Source of the DNA: a virus
Lineage: Duplodnaviria; Heunggongvirae; Uroviricota; Caudoviricetes
Strand: one strand, 5' to 3'
DNA: 21,516 bases
Virus record (IMG/VR): IMGVR_UViG_2718218434_000002
Location: 1-21,516 of that record
A program made the position numbers and the translations under genes. The notes under the pieces were generated by a model, which was not told the DNA's origin, searched no databases, and saw only the letters and a program-made list of their open reading frames with translations. Every line of letters begins with the position of its first letter. Within the stretch, counting starts at the first letter, position 1. Shown here one piece after another: positions 2,856-21,516 of this stretch.

Positions 2856-3074
2856 TCAAAGAGAGAGCGCCACCTGTCCTGATTTCATTGGATGCGGCTG
2901 AACCGGATTTGACTCTTTTGGCGTTGCAATCGAACGAACAAAAGTTTCATGGGTTACAAAAGTATGGCTGCAGTTAATATTCTGGCACTGGTTGTAACGC
3001 TCTTTGGTCAATGAAGATACCTGAAAACTGCTGCGAGTATGGGCGGCACTTCCACACAGTGGGCAAATCATCAT
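2856..3074 (-). CDS. ogr: Late-gene transcriptional activator Ogr (zinc finger), 72 aa
   Basis: Translation MMICPLCGSAAHTRSSF...KERYNQCQNINCSHTF has the Ogr/Delta Cys-x2-Cys-x22-Cys-x4-Cys finger and resembles P2 Ogr. Start chosen at the internal ATG (3074) preceded by GGGGAGAA, giving the 72-aa length. The ORF track extends 11 codons further upstream. Confidence 0.85.
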   Translation of the reverse strand: MMICPLCGSAAHTRSSFQVSSLTKERYNQCQNINCSHTFVTHETFVRSIATPKESNPVQPHPMKSGQVALSL

Positions 3075-3164
3075 TTTTCGAGTTCTCCCCATTTTTGCTA
3101 AATTCACAATAATGATACCGCATTATTCCATTTTGCAAACTTAAAAGTTCTCCATTGCGAAGAA

Positions 3165-4265
3165 TCATTCCATTTCGAAATCATCAATCCTCACTTCAAG
3201 CTCCAGACTGGTCGTAAAACCGTTATCCGAGCTGACGGTATGTGTCAGAGTCGTAATGGTCCATTCCGCATCATCTATCGGCTGTTTAAAACCACTGACC
3301 TTCACAGGCATTTCCGTGTAGAGATCTGCCCGCCCTTCCGCCAGTTGTAGCGAGAATGACGCAACGCCGCGTTGCAGGCGTTCCCACTGCATTTTCGCTG
3401 CCCGTTCGGCGTTGCTCCGGTTGGCATAAGTGCGATTAAGTACCAGCACGTTTTCATCCGTACCCACCAGGTAATCGCCCTGCTTCGCTTCCGGCTCTTT
3501 CTTCTGCTTCTTAGTTCTGCGCTTACGCTTCACCGTGGTGCTTTCTTTCTTCGCAGGTTCGCGGGTATGCAACCAGCTGGCAATTACGCCCGTGTAAGCT
3601 CCGCGATCTGCCAGGGTAAATCGGTGACTGTCGCCGTCCTTGCGTGTGATAGTGATCACTGGCAGTGGTTTACCAGTGGCGCTTTTGCCCTGTCCCTGCC
3701 GAATGAATAACAGATTGCCATTTTTCACCGACGCAATAGCACCGTACTGGCGCGCCAGCCGCATCAGAAAACTGCCGTCACTCTCATTAGTCTGGTCTAT
3801 ATGTTCCACGGGCTTATCCGACAGGTCTTTACCCAGTGCCATCTTCAGCTTGTGACGCGCGGCTATTTCCTTCACCACTTCCCCAACTGTGGTCTTGTGC
3901 CACGATTTTTCACGGCGGGTATTCAGCGTTTCCCGAAAATCAGCACTTCGCGCCCGGATAGTCAGGCGGTCCGGTGCACCAGTGTGTTCAATTTCATCCA
4001 CCGTGAATGCCCCTTTCGGGAAAAGCGGCTGCCCCTTCCACCCCAGCGCCAGCATAATGACCGCACCACGGCGCGGCAGCACGATTTTTCCGTCGGCGTC
4101 GTCCAGCTCCAGATCAAGCTGGTCTGCTTCAAAGCCCCGATTGTCCGTCAGCGTAAGCCCCATCAGGCGGTTTTCCAGCACAGTGGTGATATCCTTGCCT
4201 TCAATGCTGATGCTGAATGCCGGAGTTTTGTTGCCTTTGTTAAGCAGTTCAGAGCTGAAATTCAC
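3165..4265 (-). CDS. D: Phage tail protein D (P2 gpD family), 366 aa
   Basis: Position directly upstream of ogr and downstream of U, size, and recalled similarity to P2 gpD. GTG start overlapping the U stop (GTGA). Confidence 0.85.
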   Translation of the reverse strand: MNFSSELLNKGNKTPAFSISIEGKDITTVLENRLMGLTLTDNRGFEADQLDLELDDADGKIVLPRRGAVIMLALGWKGQPLFPKGAFTVDEIEHTGAPDRLTIRARSADFRETLNTRREKSWHKTTVGEVVKEIAARHKLKMALGKDLSDKPVEHIDQTNESDGSFLMRLARQYGAIASVKNGNLLFIRQGQGKSATGKPLPVITITRKDGDSHRFTLADRGAYTGVIASWLHTREPAKKESTTVKRKRRTKKQKKEPEAKQGDYLVGTDENVLVLNRTYANRSNAERAAKMQWERLQRGVASFSLQLAEGRADLYTEMPVKVSGFKQPIDDAEWTITTLTHTVSSDNGFTTSLELEVRIDDFEME

Positions 4266-4747
4266 GACAGCAGCCCTCCCACCGTTTTACTGATATCGCT
4301 TAATGCAGATGTTGCCGTGTCCTGCAGATTATTCAGCTGCGCACTGAGATCACCGAACATATCGGACAGGGATTCATCCACTCGTTTGAGCGACAGGGTG
4401 AACTCAATCCGGCGCGGCATACCGTCGCGGAAAAACTCCGTTTTAGTCTGATTCAGTCCCTCAATCACATACATGCCGTAAATCGTGCCGCTGCCTTCAA
4501 TCAGGGGCCATGCTTTTCCCTGTTCTGCCATCTGCTCCAGTGCCAGCAACGACAGCCTGCCGCCTGTAATCTCCGGCATAAGAACGCCAGAAAGCGTCAG
4601 CATGTCGTTATCCGGTCCCAGAAACTGCGTTGACGGTCGTCGGTTAACCCGGCTGTTAGCCGCATGTCGCCAGCTGCGCTGATACTGCAGTTCCTGATAC
4701 GGCACGGTGCGCAGCATAAACACGTACAATCCCAGCACCATCATCAT
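4262..4747 (-). CDS. U: Phage tail protein U (P2 gpU family), 161 aa
   Basis: 161-aa ORF between T and D with 4-bp overlaps on both sides. Order T-U-D-ogr is diagnostic of P2-like tails. Confidence 0.85.
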   Translation of the reverse strand: MMMVLGLYVFMLRTVPYQELQYQRSWRHAANSRVNRRPSTQFLGPDNDMLTLSGVLMPEITGGRLSLLALEQMAEQGKAWPLIEGSGTIYGMYVIEGLNQTKTEFFRDGMPRRIEFTLSLKRVDESLSDMFGDLSAQLNNLQDTATSALSDISKTVGGLLS

Positions 4748-8952: not shown

Positions 8953-11289
8953 TTACAAATATGTATTGCTATGTAGAGATGTGTTTATTCCATCTTCTAT
9001 CTCAATTTTTGACGAAGCATACTCATCATTCGCACTATCATCAATATCAAACTCATCTTGTAGATGAAGTGACTCATTTAACGGTTTATAAAACTCACCC
9101 ATCATCATTTTGTAATGGGCAGTATGCTCACTACACTCAAATATCTTCTGAAAAACAATTAAATATTTTTGCACAGACTCCGTATCTAAATTCATATAAA
9201 GATCATCACCTGCAAAATGAGAACCATCATTAATCCATGACACTAAAGATTTAAATATGATTTTTTCATCACCATAAAAATGACACTCAAGCTTCCTAAT
9301 ATCCATCCCTCCTAATATCTTAAAGTAATTCTCCAAAATCCTTCGCATTGTATTTTGTATAGTATTATTATTAATATCTGTTCTTCTCAATTCGCACCAG
9401 AGCAAATCATAAGACGTTTTTATTGGGTTTGATTCGCACTTTTCAAGATATGAGACCTTCCCTTTTTTCCTTACAATCCAAAAAGTCTCCTCTTTCATTG
9501 CTTGATTACCGGATCTTTTAGTATTAAAAGTCAACTCTTTATGAAAATAAATATTATGCGTAAGGAATATAATTTGCTTAATATTTCCTTCATCCTTACG
9601 AACATCCTCCATTAAATCTTTAATCAACGAACTTACAATAAACAGAATATCACTATCTAAACTTGAAATTGGATCATCAAATACTACAACACGATCATCT
9701 AAAACACCTGATGCATTATCACTCCCTCTAACAAGACTATAAAAATACAAAAAAGTGATAAATGTCTTTTCTCCCTCGCTAAGAGTTGTACGAGCATTAT
9801 CTCCACTATCTCTCACTATCATATAATGCTTTTTATCTTCGGAGGGTTTTAAGTAAAAATTTTTGAAGCCATAAGAATCCAGAATCTTGTTAATTTTTGT
9901 AATAGTTGGAAGAGTACTGGTTTTATTAGACTCAATTGCCTCAATAGCCGAAGCATTTAACATTAACTTCTTTTTGTCTTCCTCTAACCCAGATTTAAGT
10001 CCTTGTAACCTCCTACTAAATTTATCAGATTCGCTACGGTAAGAAGTTATTTCAGACTTTAACTCCACCTTTACGATATATGCCCATATCTGATTAGAAA
10101 GATTACTAACCTCTACCTTTCTATTACTGTGTATTTTGTTATTATTATCTATCAATAGATTTGAATCATTCAAAAAAGAAATAAAATCATCAACAACTTC
10201 ACTTAAGTCACTAAAATGAACTGATTCACTTAAAAAATTGCGTTTGTTTTTTGCCAATTCAAAATTCTTGTTTAATTCAGATAATACTATCTTAGCCTTA
10301 TCCTCAAATACTTCATAATTTATGAATGGAGATTTAATCGCCCTTATATCATCTATCGCCTGCAAGATATTATTAAGTTGATGTTCATATTGTAAAACCA
10401 ATGCATCGATTTCTCTTTTTTTTAACTCGTATGTTTTATCAAAATATGATGATAGATTATCAAATATATTATCATTTACATCCTGTTGGCAGAATGGGCA
10501 CTTGGGATTAGATTTACTGAAATATGTTAAACCTTCCTTAACCCAATCACTGTTATTGAGCATTGTAATTAAGTCTGAAACACTAACGTCTTTTTTCCCT
10601 AGAATACGCTCACTCCAAATCTCCCTACTCAAAATATCATCTATCCCATTGAAGGATGGAATTGTAATTGATACATGTGATGTCAATTCAGTAGAAAAAA
10701 CAATTTTTGCTTTCTCAATTAGCTCTGCTATTGAGCAAACTTCTGATGTGTTATTTTCATACTCAGCCAACACTCTAGCTTTAAATTTTTCACTACTATT
10801 CCTTAATCCCTCAAAAGCCTTTGAGAACACATTATCATGTTTTATTTTTTGCTTCCAACATGAATCTTTAAAAGATTTTTCATGGTCTTCGATTTGTTTA
10901 ACAACGCCTAATATATTATCACCACCATCTATTAGCTTTTCCTTTGCTATAATAGATTCTATTAGCTTATTTTTTTCTTCTTCAAGAGATATTAGTTTCT
11001 CTTCATCCTCCTTAAGATCGCTACCAAGGGTAAATACACCTTTAATTTTATCTTGACTAAAATTTCTTTCAACAAAATCTTTATTATATACGTAGCTTAT
11101 TAAAGATATATTATTTTTCCATTTAATCGGACATGTTGGATATTGTTCAGGGTCATTAATAATTTTACTTATAGTTGTTTTACCTGCACCATTAGCTCCA
11201 TATAAATAGTTAAATTTAGAAAGCCCATGTAAAAGCTGAGTAGGGCCATTATATGAGCCTACTTTGTCAATAACTACCTCTTCAATCAT
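8953..11289 (-). CDS. Stand-alone ABC-type ATPase with coiled-coil CxxC hook and C-terminal nuclease-like domain (AAA_13 / RloC-PrrC-like candidate), 778 aa
   Basis: Motifs read from the translation: Walker A GANGAGKTT (aa 31-39, nt 11173-11199), CPFC near the middle of a long charged heptad-like insert (nt about 10486-10500), ABC signature LSEGEK, Walker B VVVFDDP, H-loop LTHN, then a roughly 200-aa tail containing RRILE and a later GSH. The gene is visibly AT-rich compared with flanking phage genes. Confidence 0.6.
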   Translation of the reverse strand: MIEEVVIDKVGSYNGPTQLLHGLSKFNYLYGANGAGKTTISKIINDPEQYPTCPIKWKNNISLISYVYNKDFVERNFSQDKIKGVFTLGSDLKEDEEKLISLEEEKNKLIESIIAKEKLIDGGDNILGVVKQIEDHEKSFKDSCWKQKIKHDNVFSKAFEGLRNSSEKFKARVLAEYENNTSEVCSIAELIEKAKIVFSTELTSHVSITIPSFNGIDDILSREIWSERILGKKDVSVSDLITMLNNSDWVKEGLTYFSKSNPKCPFCQQDVNDNIFDNLSSYFDKTYELKKREIDALVLQYEHQLNNILQAIDDIRAIKSPFINYEVFEDKAKIVLSELNKNFELAKNKRNFLSESVHFSDLSEVVDDFISFLNDSNLLIDNNNKIHSNRKVEVSNLSNQIWAYIVKVELKSEITSYRSESDKFSRRLQGLKSGLEEDKKKLMLNASAIEAIESNKTSTLPTITKINKILDSYGFKNFYLKPSEDKKHYMIVRDSGDNARTTLSEGEKTFITFLYFYSLVRGSDNASGVLDDRVVVFDDPISSLDSDILFIVSSLIKDLMEDVRKDEGNIKQIIFLTHNIYFHKELTFNTKRSGNQAMKEETFWIVRKKGKVSYLEKCESNPIKTSYDLLWCELRRTDINNNTIQNTMRRILENYFKILGGMDIRKLECHFYGDEKIIFKSLVSWINDGSHFAGDDLYMNLDTESVQKYLIVFQKIFECSEHTAHYKMMMGEFYKPLNESLHLQDEFDIDDSANDEYASSKIEIEDGINTSLHSNTYL

Positions 11290-11712: not shown

Positions 11713-12294
11713 ATGAAAGTCAACATAAAACAGATTGTTGGAAATTGGGAATTAGGTCTTGCGATGGATAAACACAGCATCCGCAGCATTCCCATTGGTT
11801 ACGATGAGTGGGGACATATGCGGTTTGAGACGGAGCGTACTGAGGTAGGCGAATCTCTTTTCCAGCTTAAATACCGTGACGATTGGTCACAAGTTAAGCC
11901 TTTAGCCCAATGCCTAGCAGAGCATGCCTTTCCTCATTTCAGCAATGTCGGGTTTATCGTTCCAATGGCTGCATCTAATCAGCGTGCACGCCAGCCAGTG
12001 ACCGAAATAGCTCAGGAACTAGCCAAACTAGTTGGCAAACCATGCTTCGATGACCTCTTGTTGAAAGCCCCCGGCGGGGCATCGCTAAAGAACCTGAATA
12101 CAAAAGAAGAGAAAATCACGGCGCTGGGTAATTCGTTCTCTGTTAATGACAGTATTGAGAATAATGGCAACTGGAATGTCCTTATCATTGACGACCTCTA
12201 CCATACAGGCGCATCTATGGAGGCTGCTTGTGCTGTGCTAAACGATTATACTAAGGTTAGAAGCATTTATGTTGCAGCTTTGACTTGGAGATAG
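11713..12294 (+). CDS. Type I phosphoribosyltransferase-domain protein (PRTase), 193 aa
   Basis: PRPP-binding signature VLIIDDLYHTGASM (nt about 12178-12219) near the C-terminus. ATG preceded by GGTGAG. Its stop lies 2 nt before the next gene's ATG. Confidence 0.8.
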   Translation: MKVNIKQIVGNWELGLAMDKHSIRSIPIGYDEWGHMRFETERTEVGESLFQLKYRDDWSQVKPLAQCLAEHAFPHFSNVGFIVPMAASNQRARQPVTEIAQELAKLVGKPCFDDLLLKAPGGASLKNLNTKEEKITALGNSFSVNDSIENNGNWNVLIIDDLYHTGASMEAACAVLNDYTKVRSIYVAALTWR

Positions 12295-12296
12295 TG

Positions 12297-12854
12297 ATGA
12301 CTACGGTATTTGTTGCTGGTTCAATAACCATCAAAAACCTTGACACACTCATCGTGGATCGTCTGAAAAAAATTGTTAACTCGCGTTTTCGTATTGTAGT
12401 TGGTGATGCCAATGGTGTTGATTCATCTGTTCAACGCGTATTGCTAGAACTTGGATGTGAAAAAGCCACAGTATTCAGTAGCTCAGAAAAACCGCGCAAT
12501 AATCTTGGCTCATGGCCTGTACATGTAGTAAGTACTAGCCATGCAGCCGGCACTCGCGCGTTTTTCACTGCGAAAGATCTCAAAATGGCAGAAGAAGCCG
12601 ATTATGGATTAATGGTTTGGGATACGAAGAGCACGGGTACTCTGAGTAACGTGATTGAGCTTCTTAAACGTAAAAAATACTCTGTCGTTTTTGTTAATAA
12701 ATACAAAAAGTTCTTTATTATCAAATCTCCAGAGCACCTTGACGCTTTGATTAACTGCATGTCACCAGCCTCTTTGGAAAAAGCTGATGAAAAGATCAGA
12801 TTGCGCGAAAAAATCAACCAACTAAAAAACGAGCAAATCCAGATGTTTATGTGA
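12297..12854 (+). CDS. DprA/Smf-like (SLOG superfamily) Rossmann-fold protein, about 185 aa
   Basis: RIVVGDANGVDSSVQR resembles the DprA VSGLARGIDxxAH motif, and a later KSTGTLSNVIELLKRKK resembles the DprA SGS(L) region. ATG at 12297 with GGAG 7 nt upstream, so it is co-transcribed with the PRTase. The ORF track starts 4 codons earlier at TTG. Confidence 0.65.
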   Translation: MTTVFVAGSITIKNLDTLIVDRLKKIVNSRFRIVVGDANGVDSSVQRVLLELGCEKATVFSSSEKPRNNLGSWPVHVVSTSHAAGTRAFFTAKDLKMAEEADYGLMVWDTKSTGTLSNVIELLKRKKYSVVFVNKYKKFFIIKSPEHLDALINCMSPASLEKADEKIRLREKINQLKNEQIQMFM

Positions 12855-18619: not shown

Positions 18620-19129
18620 TCACAGCAAACCGAATGAAGCACCGAGGCCAGTCACGGTATCAACTGCACTCGCCATCGCAGGATTAGCCTGTAAACGGGC
18701 CTGCAATGAAACAGCAGCCAGCGCCATCAGTCGTGTAACAGAGTTAATGCTGCTGATCGCATCACGACGGCCTGCACTGGTTTTTACATCGCCAGAAACC
18801 GCACCTGCCGCGACACGCCCTATCTCTGCAGTTGCACTCATGACGTAATGCGGCAGTTTCTCTTTTGCCACCTCATTAATCGGTACACATGGCAGGCAGT
18901 GAATCTGTGCCAGAAAGCCATCTACCAGCGTTGAATCTTCAGTCAGATCGGTAAGCAACCAGATTTCTGGTGCGGTTAATAAATGAGGTTGAGCTGGGTT
19001 CAGCTTGTTCCGCAGAATCTGCACATTCATGCCTGCACGTTCTGCCAGTTGCACTAGGTTGTGGCGCAATGCGAATGCACGACAGGCTTCATCAAAATGT
19101 GGATGTTTGGAAACTTGGTAATCAAACAT
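18620..19129 (-). CDS. cII: CII-type lysogeny-establishment activator (186 CII family), 169 aa
   Basis: [24 protein letters not shown]...GLGASFGLL closely resembles phage 186 CII as recalled, with the same 169-aa length when started at the ATG at 19129. Confidence 0.8.
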
Positions 19130-19161
19130 GGTCAATGCCTCTGATGTATTTCAGAATCGAA

Positions 19162-19383
19162 CTAATTAAGGTTTAGATTGCATTCTGAAAGCGCATCAAC
19201 GGTCATGGCTGCTATGTTGATCATCACTTTTTCACGTTTTTTATCTTTGCGCAGACGGTGACGGATAAGGCGTCCGTCAGCCAACATGTCATTGATGGTA
19301 TCGATGGACAGCCCTGTCAGCTCGCTATAGCGTTCAATAGTCACATGAGGCGTGGTAAGAGTGATTGAAATGTTAGGTCTCAT
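19162..19383 (-). CDS. apl: Apl/Cox-like excisionase and transcriptional regulator, 73 aa
   Basis: Small HTH protein ([23 protein letters not shown]) that is first in the lytic operon, divergent from cI, as for 186 apl or P2 cox. Confidence 0.65.
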
Positions 19384-19508
19384 GATGCAACATTCCTCGT
19401 TTAATGATGATTAATCAGGACGAATACGGATCGTTTGTATTTTGTGAACACCATAAACATACGATCGCACAGTGAAATCGTCAAGATAAAAGTTCACTTG
19501 GAGTGACC
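19384..19508. promoter_or_regulatory. Immunity switch region between apl and cI (promoters and operators)
   Basis: 125-bp AT-rich intergenic region between divergently oriented apl and cI. Individual operators were not resolved. Confidence 0.5.
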
Positions 19509-20078
19509 ATGAATTTGGAGAAAGGCGGACGAGGCGCTATAGAGCGCATGGTAGAAGCTTATGGATTCAAAACTCGACAGGCGTTGTGCGATCATTTAGG
19601 AATCTCTAAAAGTACACTCGCCACACGCTACATGCGTGACTCATTCCCAGCAGAATGGGTAATCCAGTGCGCCCTTGAAACGGGCACCTCGCTTAATTGG
19701 CTCACAACCGGACATGGTTCAAAGCAAACTTCAGGTAATACAAATACTATGGAAGTTGCTAAATATGTATTATCTGATGGTGCCTTGCGTGAAGACGGTT
19801 TTTATATTTTTGATAAGGGATTTCTACCCTCTACGTTTAAAAAACCTTTTGTCATCACAGATAACAATTCTGAATTTATTTGTGATAAAGAATTTGATGA
19901 TATACGTGACGGTAAATGGGTAATAAGTATTGATGGCGAAATAACAATCCGCGACATTACTCGTTTACCCGGTGGAAGAATCTTCGTTGAAGGTGGAAAC
20001 AGAGCCTTCGAGTGCAAGATAGAAGATGTTGAAATAATTGGGAAAATTATAAGTTTAACAATTAAGTACGTTAGGTAA
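19509..20078 (+). CDS. cI: CI immunity repressor (186 CI-like), about 189 aa
   Basis: N-terminal HTH (QALCDHLGISKSTLATRYMRD). Size and position upstream of int match the 186 cI-int lysogenic operon. ATG at 19509 with GGAG 6 nt upstream. Confidence 0.8.
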   Translation: MNLEKGGRGAIERMVEAYGFKTRQALCDHLGISKSTLATRYMRDSFPAEWVIQCALETGTSLNWLTTGHGSKQTSGNTNTMEVAKYVLSDGALREDGFYIFDKGFLPSTFKKPFVITDNNSEFICDKEFDDIRDGKWVISIDGEITIRDITRLPGGRIFVEGGNRAFECKIEDVEIIGKIISLTIKYVR

Positions 20079-20093
20079 TACCGGGAGGAAACT

Positions 20094-20285
20094 ATGCTTG
20101 GTAAGGTATTTTTTGTGGTTTTATCATGCTCTTTGTTATTAAACCCACTAACTACCTATGCTAAAAATTATCCTTGTTCTGGGAAAAAGGGAGGTGTCTC
20201 TCACTGTACCTCCGATGGAAAGTTCGTTTGCAATGATGGAACTATTAGTAAATCAAAAAAAATCTGTACTAAAAACTCGCGATAA
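20094..20285 (+). CDS. Small secreted Cys-rich basic peptide (63-aa precursor with predicted signal peptide)
   Basis: Strong RBS GGGAGGA 5 nt upstream. N-terminus [23 protein letters not shown] looks like an SPase I signal peptide. The predicted mature part (about 40 aa) has 4 Cys and many Lys. AT-rich insert between cI and int. Confidence 0.55.
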
Positions 20286-20463
20286 ATTTTGCTTTTATAT
20301 CTGCGCCTAATATAACAATGAGCCGCAGGCTAACCGCAAAAGTCACATAGCAAAAAATAGCCAACTTCATTATGGCTTCAGTGAGATGTATGGTCACAGG
20401 ATTTCATACATTGACACTGGTTATACATACAGTAAAAATGCTCTCTATTGGAGGGCATTTTTT

Positions 20464-21516
20464 ATGGCAGTACGAAAACTCACCACAGGAAAATGGCTTT
20501 GCGAATGTTACCCCGCCGGACGTAGTGGGCGTCGTGTGCGTAAACAATTCGCCACCAAAGGCGAAGCTCTGGCTTTTGAGCGCCATACGATGGAAGAAAC
20601 CGAAGCAAAGCCCTGGCTGGGAGAATCAGTGGATCGTCGAACACTGAAAGACGTGGTTGAGCTATGGTTCAAACTACATGGTAAATCTCTAACCGCTGGG
20701 CAGCATGTCTATGATAAATTGCTGTTGATGGTTGACGCTCTGGGCAATCCCCTTGCAACCGATCTCACCTCTAAAATGTTTGCCCACTATCGAGATAAAC
20801 GCCTGACAGGTGAGATCTACTTCAGCGAGAAATGGAAGAAAGGAGCAAGCCCGGTCACCATTAACCTGGAGCAAAGCTATCTAAGTAGTGTTTTTAGCGA
20901 ACTATCCCGCCTGGGCGAATGGTCGTATCCAAACCCACTGGAGAACATGCGAAAATTCACCATCGCAGAAAAAGAGATGGCATGGCTTACCCATGAGCAG
21001 ATTGTTGAACTGCTGGCTGATTGCAAACGTCAGGACCCAATTCTGGCACTGGTAGTCAAGATATGCTTAAGCACAGGCGCACGCTGGCGAGAAGCAATAA
21101 ACCTTACCCGATCACAGGTGACTAAATACCGAATTACCTTTGTAAGAACGAAGGGGAAGAAAAACAGAAGCATCCCTATCAGTAAAGAGCTTTATGAAGA
21201 GATCATGGCGCTTGATGGGTTCAATTTCTTCACAGACTGCTATTTTCAATTTTTATCCGTGATGGAAAAAACGTCAATCGTGCTCCCTCGCGGTCAACTG
21301 ACACACGTTCTGCGCCATACGTTTGCGGCGCATTTCATGATGTCGGGTGGAAATATCCTTGCTTTGCAAAAAATCCTCGGACATCACGATATAAAAATGA
21401 CTATGCGTTACGCTCATCTGGCACCGGATCATCTGGAAACGGCGCTCCGTTTCAATCCTCTGGCAACGCTGCCAAGTGGCGACAAAGTGGCGGCAGCGGT
21501 TGGCATTACCCCGTAA
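20464..21516 (+). CDS. int: Tyrosine integrase (P2/186 Int family), 350 aa
   Basis: C-terminal catalytic region with R...HxxR...Y context (LTHVLRHTFAAHFMMSGG...MTMRYAHL). Start at the ATG at 20464 preceded by GGAGGG. The ORF track starts 26 codons earlier. Confidence 0.9.
   Translation: MAVRKLTTGKWLCECYPAGRSGRRVRKQFATKGEALAFERHTMEETEAKPWLGESVDRRTLKDVVELWFKLHGKSLTAGQHVYDKLLLMVDALGNPLATDLTSKMFAHYRDKRLTGEIYFSEKWKKGASPVTINLEQSYLSSVFSELSRLGEWSYPNPLENMRKFTIAEKEMAWLTHEQIVELLADCKRQDPILALVVKICLSTGARWREAINLTRSQVTKYRITFVRTKGKKNRSIPISKELYEEIMALDGFNFFTDCYFQFLSVMEKTSIVLPRGQLTHVLRHTFAAHFMMSGGNILALQKILGHHDIKMTMRYAHLAPDHLETALRFNPLATLPSGDKVAAAVGITP

What the first reader, a model, noticed from the sequence alone, without database searches (positions are those of the whole stretch)
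20094..20285. Small secreted Cys-rich peptide gene between cI and int (candidate lysogenic-conversion moron)
An AT-rich 63-codon ORF with a strong RBS sits 16 nt after cI and before int, so it should be co-expressed in the lysogen from the cI promoter. It has a typical signal peptide (n-region MLGK, hydrophobic core, TYA cleavage motif) and a lysine-rich mature part with 4 cysteines, enough for two disulfides. P2/186 backbones normally have no gene here. A periplasmic or exported peptide expressed during lysogeny could act in superinfection exclusion, as a toxin or as an immunity function.
Basis: partly seen in the sequence, partly recalled or inferred. Interest (0 to 1): 0.5.

Follow-up and report, generated by a model that had tools for sequence, protein, structure and literature searches.

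The report
Prophage-borne exported YdcA-family mini-protein
A real, strongly conserved 63-codon gene for a small exported, disulfide-rich, basic protein of the already-annotated YdcA family sits as cargo directly behind the repressor gene of a P2/186-like E. coli prophage; it is common (about 12% of complete E. coli genomes, including BL21) and its function is still unknown.

Summary
ORF 20094-20285 (+) is a genuine gene with a GGGAGG ribosome-binding site 15 nt after the cI stop. It encodes a Sec-type signal peptide and a 40-residue basic mature part with 4 invariant Cys. Between diverged alleles dN/dS is about 0.05.

It is not new. It passes the curated cutoff of NCBIfam NF007463, and RefSeq names it "YdcA family protein". 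It matches phrog_6000. The gene is present in 627 of 5,426 complete E. coli genomes.

The cI-int junction is empty in P2 and 186 but is a variable cargo slot in relatives. KP12 and 813R9 carry SNIPE/PD-lambda-1 there, HP1 has four small ORFs, and 4LV2017 has an unknown gene. The same cI - YdcA-like - int order recurs in Yersinia, Pectobacterium, Buttiauxella and Haemophilus (HP2/S2, where it is unannotated).

New leads: the module is homologous to each lobe of Legionella Dis2, a disulfide-pinned subunit of the Dot/Icm outer-membrane cap. It is also fused, after a signal peptide, to three unrelated secreted nuclease folds. This suggests a periplasmic module that binds a polyanion, possibly DNA.

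A superinfection-exclusion or defence role is plausible but untested; the gene has no PADLOC match.

The parts
20083..20088 (+). Shine-Dalgarno GGGAGG of the small ORF, 5 nt before its ATG
   Evidence: Read from the sequence.
20094..20285 (+). YdcA-family gene: 63 codons plus stop
   Evidence: ORF list. NCBIfam NF007463 at 116 bits against a cutoff of 93. phrog_6000 at 4.6e-34. dN/dS about 0.05. The exact protein is in public databases on at least 1000 contigs.
20094..20162 (+). Predicted Sec signal peptide (residues 1-23, MLGK / hydrophobic core / TYA), with cleavage predicted after Ala23
   Evidence: Hydrophobicity profile. Family-wide conservation of the n-h-c layout, with Ala at -1 in 41/41 members. 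In the nuclease fusion proteins the module directly follows a signal peptide. SignalP was not run.
20163..20282 (+). Mature 40-residue basic 4-Cys module (YdcA / Dis2-lobe fold)
   Evidence: Invariant P, C, S, K, GG, C, F, C, G, S, S, K, C columns. AF2 pLDDT of 85-92 over the core. Sequence and fold match to Dis2, chain 7muc_AN.
19509..20078 (+). 186-type CI repressor gene, immediately upstream and presumably in the same transcript
   Evidence: Pfam Phage_CI_repr at 2.8e-33 plus Phage_CI_C at 2e-28. RefSeq annotation of the same DNA.
20079..20385 (+). Approximate extent of the cargo cassette (ORF plus AT-rich spacer) between the cI stop and the start of the conserved int module
   Evidence: Homology to the int regions of other P2-like phages and prophages that carry different cargo begins at window 20386-20406. 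GC of the cassette is 37%.
20434..20462 (+). 13-bp hairpin (loop 20447-20449) that pairs the int Shine-Dalgarno GGAGGG (20450-20455) and ends in a U-run just before the int ATG. It looks like an attenuator or terminator and belongs to the int module.
   Evidence: RNA folds (z = -4.4 for 20270-20470, -17.2 kcal/mol locally). Identical in the diverged allele L166. Function is inferred only.
20464..21516 (+). P2-type tyrosine integrase, the last prophage gene
   Evidence: Pfam Int_N plus Phage_integrase. RefSeq annotation, with host gene rcdA following in the best-matching genome.

Best explanation
Identity (about 0.9 confident): this is an accessory 'moron' gene of a P2/186-like prophage. It encodes a YdcA-family mini-protein.

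Expression (inferred): it is transcribed with cI from the lysogenic promoter.

Localisation and maturation: the protein is inferred to be exported by Sec and cleaved after Ala23, based on sequence features conserved across the family. It is then oxidised to a roughly 4.3-kDa, basic, two-disulfide module. The disulfides are inferred by homology to the disulfide-pinned lobes of Dis2.

Mechanism (about 0.3 confident, inference only): the module is a compact binding domain for a polyanionic ligand in the periplasm or at the inner face of the outer membrane. DNA is the best guess for the ligand. In the lysogen it would act at the envelope on incoming foreign DNA or its entry machinery. That would be a minimal superinfection-exclusion or defence-like function, analogous in position and timing to the SNIPE/PD-lambda-1 gene that sibling prophages carry in the same slot.
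For: Gene reality and family.

Export signal. In the fusion proteins the module always follows a signal peptide.

Operon placement: a 15-nt gap after cI, a strong RBS, and no + strand terminator between cI and the ORF. In HP2 and several other loci the start codon overlaps the upstream stop, which suggests translational coupling.

Cargo status: the junction is empty in 186 and P2 and holds different genes in relatives. Those include PD-Lambda-1 at 3e-120 in 813R9; KP12 carries a gene of identical size and annotation. PD-lambda-1 is SNIPE, which cuts phage DNA during injection (PMC13190303). The integrase-primase interval is a minor P2 defence hotspot (PMC13586616).

Recurrent context: a CI repressor upstream (8/73) and a P2-type integrase downstream (6/70) are the only neighbour families that recur across genera.

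Ligand hint: the module is fused N-terminally to Endonuclease_NS (four proteins), to SNase and to a PLD-like nuclease. Tandem 2-3x repeats exist with Ser/Lys linkers. The mature part has pI 9.6, with invariant Lys, Ser and Gly-Gly positions. HP2's next gene is an exported OB-fold protein (tRNA_anti-like).

Envelope location and disulfides: there is homology to Dis2 (phmmer 3.1e-5; profile 5.1e-5; Foldseek top and only hit, probability 0.98/0.77, TM 0.62). Dis2 was seen by cryo-EM next to the outer membrane with five disulfides (PMC8486379).
Against: No experiment bears on this protein's function.

It has no PADLOC match.

Nuclease fusions are equally explained by an envelope-anchoring module, and Dis2 is not known to bind DNA.

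Deleting dis2 has only subtle effects (PMC12716638).

The only phenotype for the chromosomal paralogue ydcA is acid/3-HP sensitivity, which points to envelope physiology rather than phage exclusion.

About 85-90% of species-level occurrences of the family are not next to a repressor or an integrase.

Phage DNA crossing the periplasm is usually shielded by tail or tape-measure conduits, so a soluble periplasmic DNA binder may not reach it.

Signal-peptide cleavage and disulfide pairing are predicted, not shown.

Confidence: 0.4

Rival explanations
1. Envelope-physiology factor. The module binds an outer-membrane or periplasmic component (LPS or phospholipid head groups, peptidoglycan, or an outer-membrane protein complex, as Dis2 does in the Dot/Icm cap). 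It would benefit the lysogen by altering envelope robustness or stress tolerance, not by acting on incoming phage or DNA.
For: Dis2 sits against the outer membrane as a peripheral structural subunit. The chromosomal paralogue ydcA is linked only to acid/3-HP tolerance and YdcI control. Most family members are in non-phage chromosomal contexts. A basic, Lys-rich surface also suits anionic lipids or LPS. As an anchoring module it would also explain the fusions to secreted nucleases.
Against: It does not explain why three unrelated nuclease folds are the only recognised fusion partners. It also does not explain why the gene recurs specifically in the immunity operon slot, which elsewhere holds a defence gene.
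Confidence: 0.3
2. Secreted antimicrobial, toxin-like peptide or periplasmic protease inhibitor. A defensin- or knottin-like basic disulfide peptide would act on competitors or on a protease.
For: It is small, basic and has four Cys. There are weak, non-significant sequence hits to potato type-II proteinase inhibitors at E 0.09-0.3.
Against: The hits are below significance. There is no adjacent immunity or export gene. E. coli has no route to release a Sec-exported periplasmic peptide. The family's strong conservation across Proteobacteria, with chromosomal copies, is unlike bacteriocins.
Confidence: 0.05
3. Lipoprotein. Cys12 in VVLS-C would be lipid-modified, tethering the whole remaining sequence to a membrane.
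For: L-S-C resembles a lipobox. One UniRef entry for a Yersinia homologue is named 'Lipoprotein'.
Against: The Cys is at position 12, with only about 7 hydrophobic residues before it; known lipoprotein signals place the Cys at about 15-35 (established PROSITE PS51257 rule). Most homologues lack a Cys there or have F/I/V at -1. All homologues keep an Ala-ended cleavage site 3-5 residues before the conserved domain.
Confidence: 0.03
4. Spurious ORF in an AT-rich spacer, or a decaying remnant without function.
For: It is short and AT-rich. Some genomes carry a frameshifted or truncated allele that PGAP calls as 50 aa.
Against: It passes a curated HMM cutoff. dN/dS is about 0.05, with zero replacements in the domain. 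There are 460 clusters of homologues with invariant Cys.
Confidence: 0.01

Closest known systems
YdcA family (E. coli K-12 YdcA, b1419; NCBIfam PRK10040 series NF007462/NF007463/NF007464; precomputed Pfam PF27300; phrog_6000)
   Same: Same size, same layout of signal peptide followed by a conserved module ([12 protein letters not shown]...FVCNDGxxSKSKKxC), and the same four Cys. It passes the curated cutoff of subfamily NF007463, and RefSeq already labels identical genes 'YdcA family protein'.
   Different: It is the prophage-borne subfamily (NF007463), not the K-12 chromosomal equivalog: NF007462 scores 68 bits against a cutoff of 118, and DNA similarity to ydcA is only about 76% over 45% of the gene. 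The family has no established function.
Legionella pneumophila Dis2 (Lpg0823), outer-membrane-cap subunit of the Dot/Icm type IVB secretion system (PDB 7MUC/7MUD)
   Same: Each Dis2 lobe aligns with the mature module, including all four Cys and the K-x-GG and VCN(D/N)G motifs. Dis2 is the only structural match. It is periplasmic and disulfide-bonded.
   Different: Dis2 is a two-lobe, 124-aa protein with extra Cys and five disulfides. It is built into a secretion machine. The window has a single lobe and no T4SS genes.
Unannotated 60-codon ORF of Haemophilus phages HP2 and S2, between cI and orf1(S)
   Same: Same family, at 73.5% identity over the aligned module (residues 27-60). Same position directly after a 186/HP1-type cI in the pL operon and upstream of int.
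   Different: Its ATG overlaps the cI stop codon. It is followed by an exported OB-fold gene before int. The host belongs to a different order. It is not annotated in the records.
SNIPE / PD-lambda-1 (DUF4041 plus GIY-YIG nuclease), carried in the cI-int slot of phage vB_EcoM-813R9; KP12 carries a gene of the same size and annotation
   Same: Same genomic slot and presumably the same lysogenic expression. It acts at the envelope on incoming DNA.
   Different: There is no sequence or domain relationship. SNIPE is a 558-aa inner-membrane-anchored cytoplasmic nuclease with a demonstrated phenotype; the ORF is a 40-residue periplasmic module with none.
Classical P2 lysogenic-conversion genes (old, tin, fun/Z) and periplasmic or membrane superinfection-exclusion proteins such as T4 Imm/Sp (from general knowledge)
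   Same: Non-essential genes in variable slots, expressed from the prophage, with envelope-level or entry-level action proposed.
   Different: Different slots and unrelated proteins. No exclusion phenotype is known for any YdcA-family member.

Membership tests
YdcA family, subfamily NCBIfam NF007463 (PRK10040.1-2) | Whole-protein HMM score above the curated cutoff | tested here: met
   116.1 bits against a cutoff of 93, residues 5-63 on profile positions 1-58. phrog_6000 at 4.6e-34. Homologues carry precomputed PF27300.
YdcA family, subfamily NCBIfam NF007463 (PRK10040.1-2) | Four conserved Cys and the [12 protein letters not shown] ... F-V-C-N-D-G-x-x-S-K-S-K-K-x-C motif in a protein of about 55-65 aa | tested here: met
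   All invariant columns are present in the window protein.
YdcA family, subfamily NCBIfam NF007463 (PRK10040.1-2) | N-terminal Sec-type signal peptide cleaved 3-5 residues before the first Cys | tested here: inconclusive
   The sequence features fit and are family-wide. No dedicated predictor (SignalP) or experiment was available.
E. coli K-12 YdcA equivalog (NF007462) | Score above the equivalog cutoff | tested here: not met
   68 bits against a cutoff of 118. It is a paralogous subfamily, not the chromosomal ydcA.
Dis2-type T4SS outer-membrane-cap subunit | Significant sequence and fold similarity to Dis2 lobes | tested here: met
Dis2-type T4SS outer-membrane-cap subunit | Two tandem lobes and association with a type IV secretion system | tested here: not met
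   Single lobe of 40 residues. The surrounding genes are P2/186-like phage genes only.
Prophage anti-phage defence or superinfection-exclusion cargo | Located in a variable accessory slot of the prophage and placed for expression in the lysogen | tested here: met
   The slot is empty in P2 and 186 and holds unrelated genes in relatives. The ORF lies 15 nt after cI with no terminator between. Expression itself was not measured.
Prophage anti-phage defence or superinfection-exclusion cargo | Match to a known or candidate defence-system model | tested here: not met
   No PADLOC hit at E <= 0.01.
Prophage anti-phage defence or superinfection-exclusion cargo | Reduces infection by other phages | not testable with these tools
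   This needs plating assays with deletion and expression strains.
Bacterial lipoprotein | Lipobox with the Cys at about position 15-35, after an adequate hydrophobic region | tested here: not met
   The Cys is at position 12. Homologues lack a conserved lipobox.

The most novel reading that the evidence does not exclude
The YdcA/Dis2-lobe module is a previously unrecognised 40-residue periplasmic DNA-binding (polyanion-binding) domain. P2-like prophages of Escherichia, Yersinia, Pectobacterium and Haemophilus express it from the immunity operon as a minimal entry-level barrier against incoming phage, transforming or conjugative DNA. The same module would recruit secreted nucleases to DNA and decorate the Dot/Icm secretion channel.
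Probability: 0.15. Interest if true: 0.7.

Novelty: already known. Interest (0 to 1): 0.3.

Why it matters
The gene itself is ordinary: it is annotated, widespread and of unknown function.

It is worth a modest follow-up for three reasons:
- It is made, presumably constitutively, with the repressor in about one in eight complete E. coli genomes, including the laboratory workhorse BL21/E. coli B.
- It occupies a slot that in sibling prophages holds a proven entry-level defence gene (SNIPE).
- This analysis ties it to two things not linked in the literature I could read: the 'species-specific' Dis2 subunit of the Legionella Dot/Icm machine, and an N-terminal module on three unrelated families of secreted nucleases.

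A simple binding and phage-panel experiment could assign a first function to a whole family (PF27300 / PRK10040 / phrog_6000).

Tried and rejected
- The literature on 'ydcA' in F-like plasmids and the gonococcal genetic island refers to an unrelated leading-region methylase. It is a name collision and was discarded.
- Pfam (local copy) gave no family for the ORF.
- PADLOC gave no hit for the ORF.
- Rfam found nothing in 19000-21516 apart from a chance CRISPR-DR hit at E 0.6.
- The afdb50 library was unavailable.
- Weak PDB sequence hits to plant proteinase inhibitors, lectins and the LDL receptor (E 0.09 to above 1) were treated as Cys-composition noise.
- I tested whether tightly coupled upstream neighbours in Betaproteobacteria are lambda-type repressors. 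Only one of ten had Peptidase_S24, so no general claim is made.
- The simple terminator scan found no + strand terminator between cI and int but missed the hairpin at 20434-20462, which RNA folding later found.
- My own error: the window integrase query started at 20465 instead of 20464. It was out of frame and matched only near-identical DNA. This was corrected, and the conclusions (which rested on the HP2 integrase query) are unchanged. The 'int GC3' value is invalid and is replaced by 0.49.

Full report
**1. The observation**

The window's right end is the immunity/integration region of a P2/186-like prophage. On the minus strand lie cII (18620-19135, Pfam Phage_CP76) and an apl/cox-like gene (19162-19383). 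On the plus strand lie a 186-type cI (19509-20078, Phage_CI_repr plus Phage_CI_C) and a P2-type integrase (20464-21516, Int_N plus Phage_integrase).

Between cI and int is the reported ORF, 20094-20285, of 63 codons. GGGAGG lies 5 nt before its ATG, and the gap after the cI stop is 15 nt.

The ORF has 34.9% GC against 47.6% for the window. The AT-rich block also covers the cI C-terminal half (33.9%) and the 178-nt spacer (37.1%), and it ends at int (48.3%).

The protein has K4, a hydrophobic core and T-Y-A23. The remaining 40 residues hold 9 basic residues, 2 acidic residues and 4 Cys, with pI 9.6.

**2. It is a real gene**

It scores 116 bits on NCBIfam NF007463 (curated cutoff 93) and 4.6e-34 on phrog_6000.

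Compared with a 93%-identical E. coli allele, 11 of 13 nucleotide differences are synonymous third-position changes. The two replacements are T20A and K24R, which flank the predicted cleavage site. Residues 25-63 have no replacements. This gives dN/dS of about 0.05.

An exhaustive profile search finds 460 clusters (at 50% identity) of homologues, 253 of them at E <= 1e-10. The Cys, Gly-Gly, Lys, Ser and Phe columns are invariant.

The N-terminal 20-25 residues are not conserved in sequence. All 41 members examined nonetheless keep the charged / hydrophobic / small-x-Ala layout, with Ala at -1 in 41/41 and S/A/T at -3 in 34/41. This is the signature of a Sec signal peptide. I could not run SignalP, so cleavage is an inference.

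**3. It is already known as a family, and common**

RefSeq annotates the same DNA as 'phage repressor protein CI | YdcA family protein (or hypothetical protein) | integrase'.
- The 1.2-kb cI-ORF-int block is at least 80% covered in 590 of 5,426 complete E. coli genomes.
- The ORF alone is present in 627 (11.6%), including BL21/E. coli B and ATCC 8739.
- The exact protein is in public collections on at least 1000 contigs. Its names are 'hypothetical protein', 'YdcA family protein' and, in UniRef, an unverified 'Conjugal transfer protein'.
- Homologues carry the precomputed Pfam accession PF27300.

The K-12 chromosomal ydcA is a distinct paralogue: NF007462 scores 68 bits against a cutoff of 118, and DNA identity is about 76% over part of the gene. 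That paralogue is itself of unknown function. The only reports are sensitivity of a deletion to 300 mM 3-hydroxypropionate and YdcI/acid regulation (PMC7642389). 'ydcA' in the plasmid and gonococcal-island papers is an unrelated methylase.

**4. The genomic slot**

In phage 186, cI and int abut. In P2, C and int are 115 bp apart with nothing annotated between them. In relatives, however, the junction is a cargo slot:

| Phage | Content of the cI-int junction |
|---|---|
| 186 | nothing; cI and int abut |
| P2 | nothing; 115-bp gap |
| vB_EcoM-813R9 | 558-aa DUF4041 + T5orf172 gene, matching PADLOC PD-Lambda-1 at 3e-120 |
| KP12 | gene of the same size (1,677 nt) and the same 'chromosome segregation ATPase' annotation; not scanned itself |
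| Klebsiella 4LV2017 | 349-aa unknown gene |
| HP1 | four small ORFs |
| HP2 and S2 | unannotated 60-codon YdcA-like ORF whose ATG overlaps the cI stop, then an exported OB-fold gene, orf1(S) |

PD-lambda-1 is now SNIPE, an inner-membrane nuclease that cleaves phage DNA during injection (PMC13190303). [quoted passage not shown]

Homology of this window to int regions of phages with other cargo starts at 20386-20406. That bounds the cassette at roughly 20079-20385.

**5. Recurrence of the arrangement**

In one genome per species I found 78 loci across Gamma-, Beta- and Alphaproteobacteria. I clustered the nearest neighbours.
- The only families that recur across genera are the CI repressor upstream (8 of 73; Pfam counts 7) and the P2-type integrase downstream (6 of 70).
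- These cases come from Escherichia, Yersinia (three species), Pectobacterium and Pasteurellaceae. A Buttiauxella case has one more ORF in between.
- The flanking repressors are only 32-38% identical to this one.
- All other neighbour clusters are within-genus synteny.

So the family is mostly chromosomal or in heterogeneous contexts, and its one recurrent mobile context is exactly this slot. It also occurs as a small cargo gene in Moraxella, Acinetobacter and Pseudomonas phages at other positions.

**6. Structure and relatives**

The only PDB relative by sequence is chain AN of 7MUC/7MUD (phmmer 3.1e-5; family profile 5.1e-5). Both of its lobes align to the module, and all four Cys are matched.

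The homology gives experimental backing for a periplasmic, disulfide-bonded module. It appears not to be noted in those papers.

**7. Functional hints**

Among the longer family members the module sits directly after a signal peptide. The only recognisable C-terminal partners are nucleases of three unrelated folds:
- Endonuclease_NS: L116, L154, P0153, P0194
- Staphylococcal nuclease: P0104
- A PLD-like domain: P0206

Other members are 2-3 tandem modules joined by Ser/Lys-rich linkers. Still others carry a second Cys-rich lobe that marginally matches the PBCV basic adaptor domain.

Tandem repeats, invariant Lys/Ser/Gly-Gly positions and a basic pI are typical of a module that binds a polymeric anion. 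The nuclease partners make DNA the first candidate. An envelope-anchoring role (LPS, lipid, peptidoglycan or an outer-membrane complex, as in Dis2) explains the same data.

**8. Operon logic**

No terminator separates cI from the ORF, so the ORF should be made whenever cI is. This is an inference.

Downstream, the spacer folds better than shuffled controls (z = -4.4). A 13-bp hairpin at 20434-20462 pairs the int Shine-Dalgarno and ends in a U-run immediately before the int ATG. A TTGACA-17-AAAAAT promoter-like site lies just upstream at 20411-20439. This element lies in the int module and is identical in a diverged allele. It suggests that int expression is throttled after the cI-ORF unit. I did not test this further.

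**9. Verdict**

- It is not novel as an entity, and its function remains open.
- My best mechanistic guess is an envelope-level binding module for a polyanion, possibly DNA, used as a minimal exclusion or defence-like factor. I give that about 0.3. An envelope-physiology role is about equally likely.
- Lipoprotein, toxin/inhibitor and spurious-ORF readings are unlikely.

Noticed in passing
window 20411-20466: A 13-bp hairpin (20434-20462, -17 kcal/mol) pairs the int Shine-Dalgarno GGAGGG (20450-20455) and ends in a U-run right before the int ATG (20464). A TTGACA-17-AAAAAT promoter-like site lies at 20411-20439. It looks like an attenuator or translational throttle for int. The simple terminator scan missed it.
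   Followed up: partly
window 8953-11289 (-): A 778-aa AAA-family ATPase in the classical P2 hotspot between portal and replication genes matches the PADLOC candidate defence system PDC-S06 at 1e-264.
   Followed up: partly
window 11713-12294 (+) and 12285-12854 (+): A ComF-family phosphoribosyltransferase-like gene (weak ShosT/PsyrT matches, about 1e-8) plus an adjacent hypothetical gene in the same hotspot. This may be a two-gene defence or toxin-antitoxin-like pair.
   Followed up: partly
L001 (Haemophilus phage HP2, NC_003315) 2920-3102 (+ in locus); same in phage S2: An unannotated 60-codon YdcA-family gene whose ATG overlaps the cI stop. The next gene, orf1(S), has a signal-peptide-like N-terminus and a tRNA_anti-like OB fold (2.8e-13). 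A similar OB-fold ORF follows the YdcA-like gene in Moraxella caviae (L119 4224-4667).
   Followed up: partly
L116 3986-4933, L154 3926-4861; proteins P0104, P0153, P0194, P0206: The YdcA-like module is fused, after a signal peptide, to three unrelated secreted nuclease folds (Endonuclease_NS, SNase, PLD-like). Tandem 2-3x module proteins also exist (P0065, P0066, P0067).
   Followed up: partly
L121, L123, L126, L137, L139-L141, L144, L145, L149, L159, L162 (about 4001-4350 in each): Two-lobe forms of 105-120 aa in Comamonas, Herbaspirillum, Stenotrophomonas and pseudomonads. Their C-terminal lobe (C.C.SG..CTGPRGG.YC...G.KSY.RR) just passes the Pfam PBCV_basic_adap cutoff (21-22 bits against 20.4).
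   Followed up: no
PDB 7MUC chain AN (Dis2, Lpg0823): Dis2 is described in the literature as Legionellales-specific with no homologues or fold relatives. Both of its lobes align with the widespread YdcA family at E of about 3e-5.
   Followed up: partly
L165 (NZ_CP116106.1) 20733-20885, equivalent to window about 20133-20285: In the genome most similar to the window (99.9%), a 1-nt indel makes PGAP call a 50-aa CDS (WP_250221206.1) that starts at the TTG of Leu14. In that allele the protein would lack the N-terminal part of the signal peptide and may be an inactivated copy.
   Followed up: no
window 19731-20385: The AT-rich block (34-37% GC) is not confined to the small ORF. It starts in the C-terminal domain of cI and runs to the edge of the int module. 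The cI C-terminal domain and the cargo may therefore share a history distinct from the rest of the prophage (47.6% GC).
   Followed up: no
L164 (Methylotenera MAG) 3153-4141: A truncated or frameshifted YdcA-like ORF lies 14 nt after a Peptidase_S24 (LexA/lambda-CI-type) gene. This is one isolated case of the repressor-adjacent arrangement outside P2-like phages.
   Followed up: no
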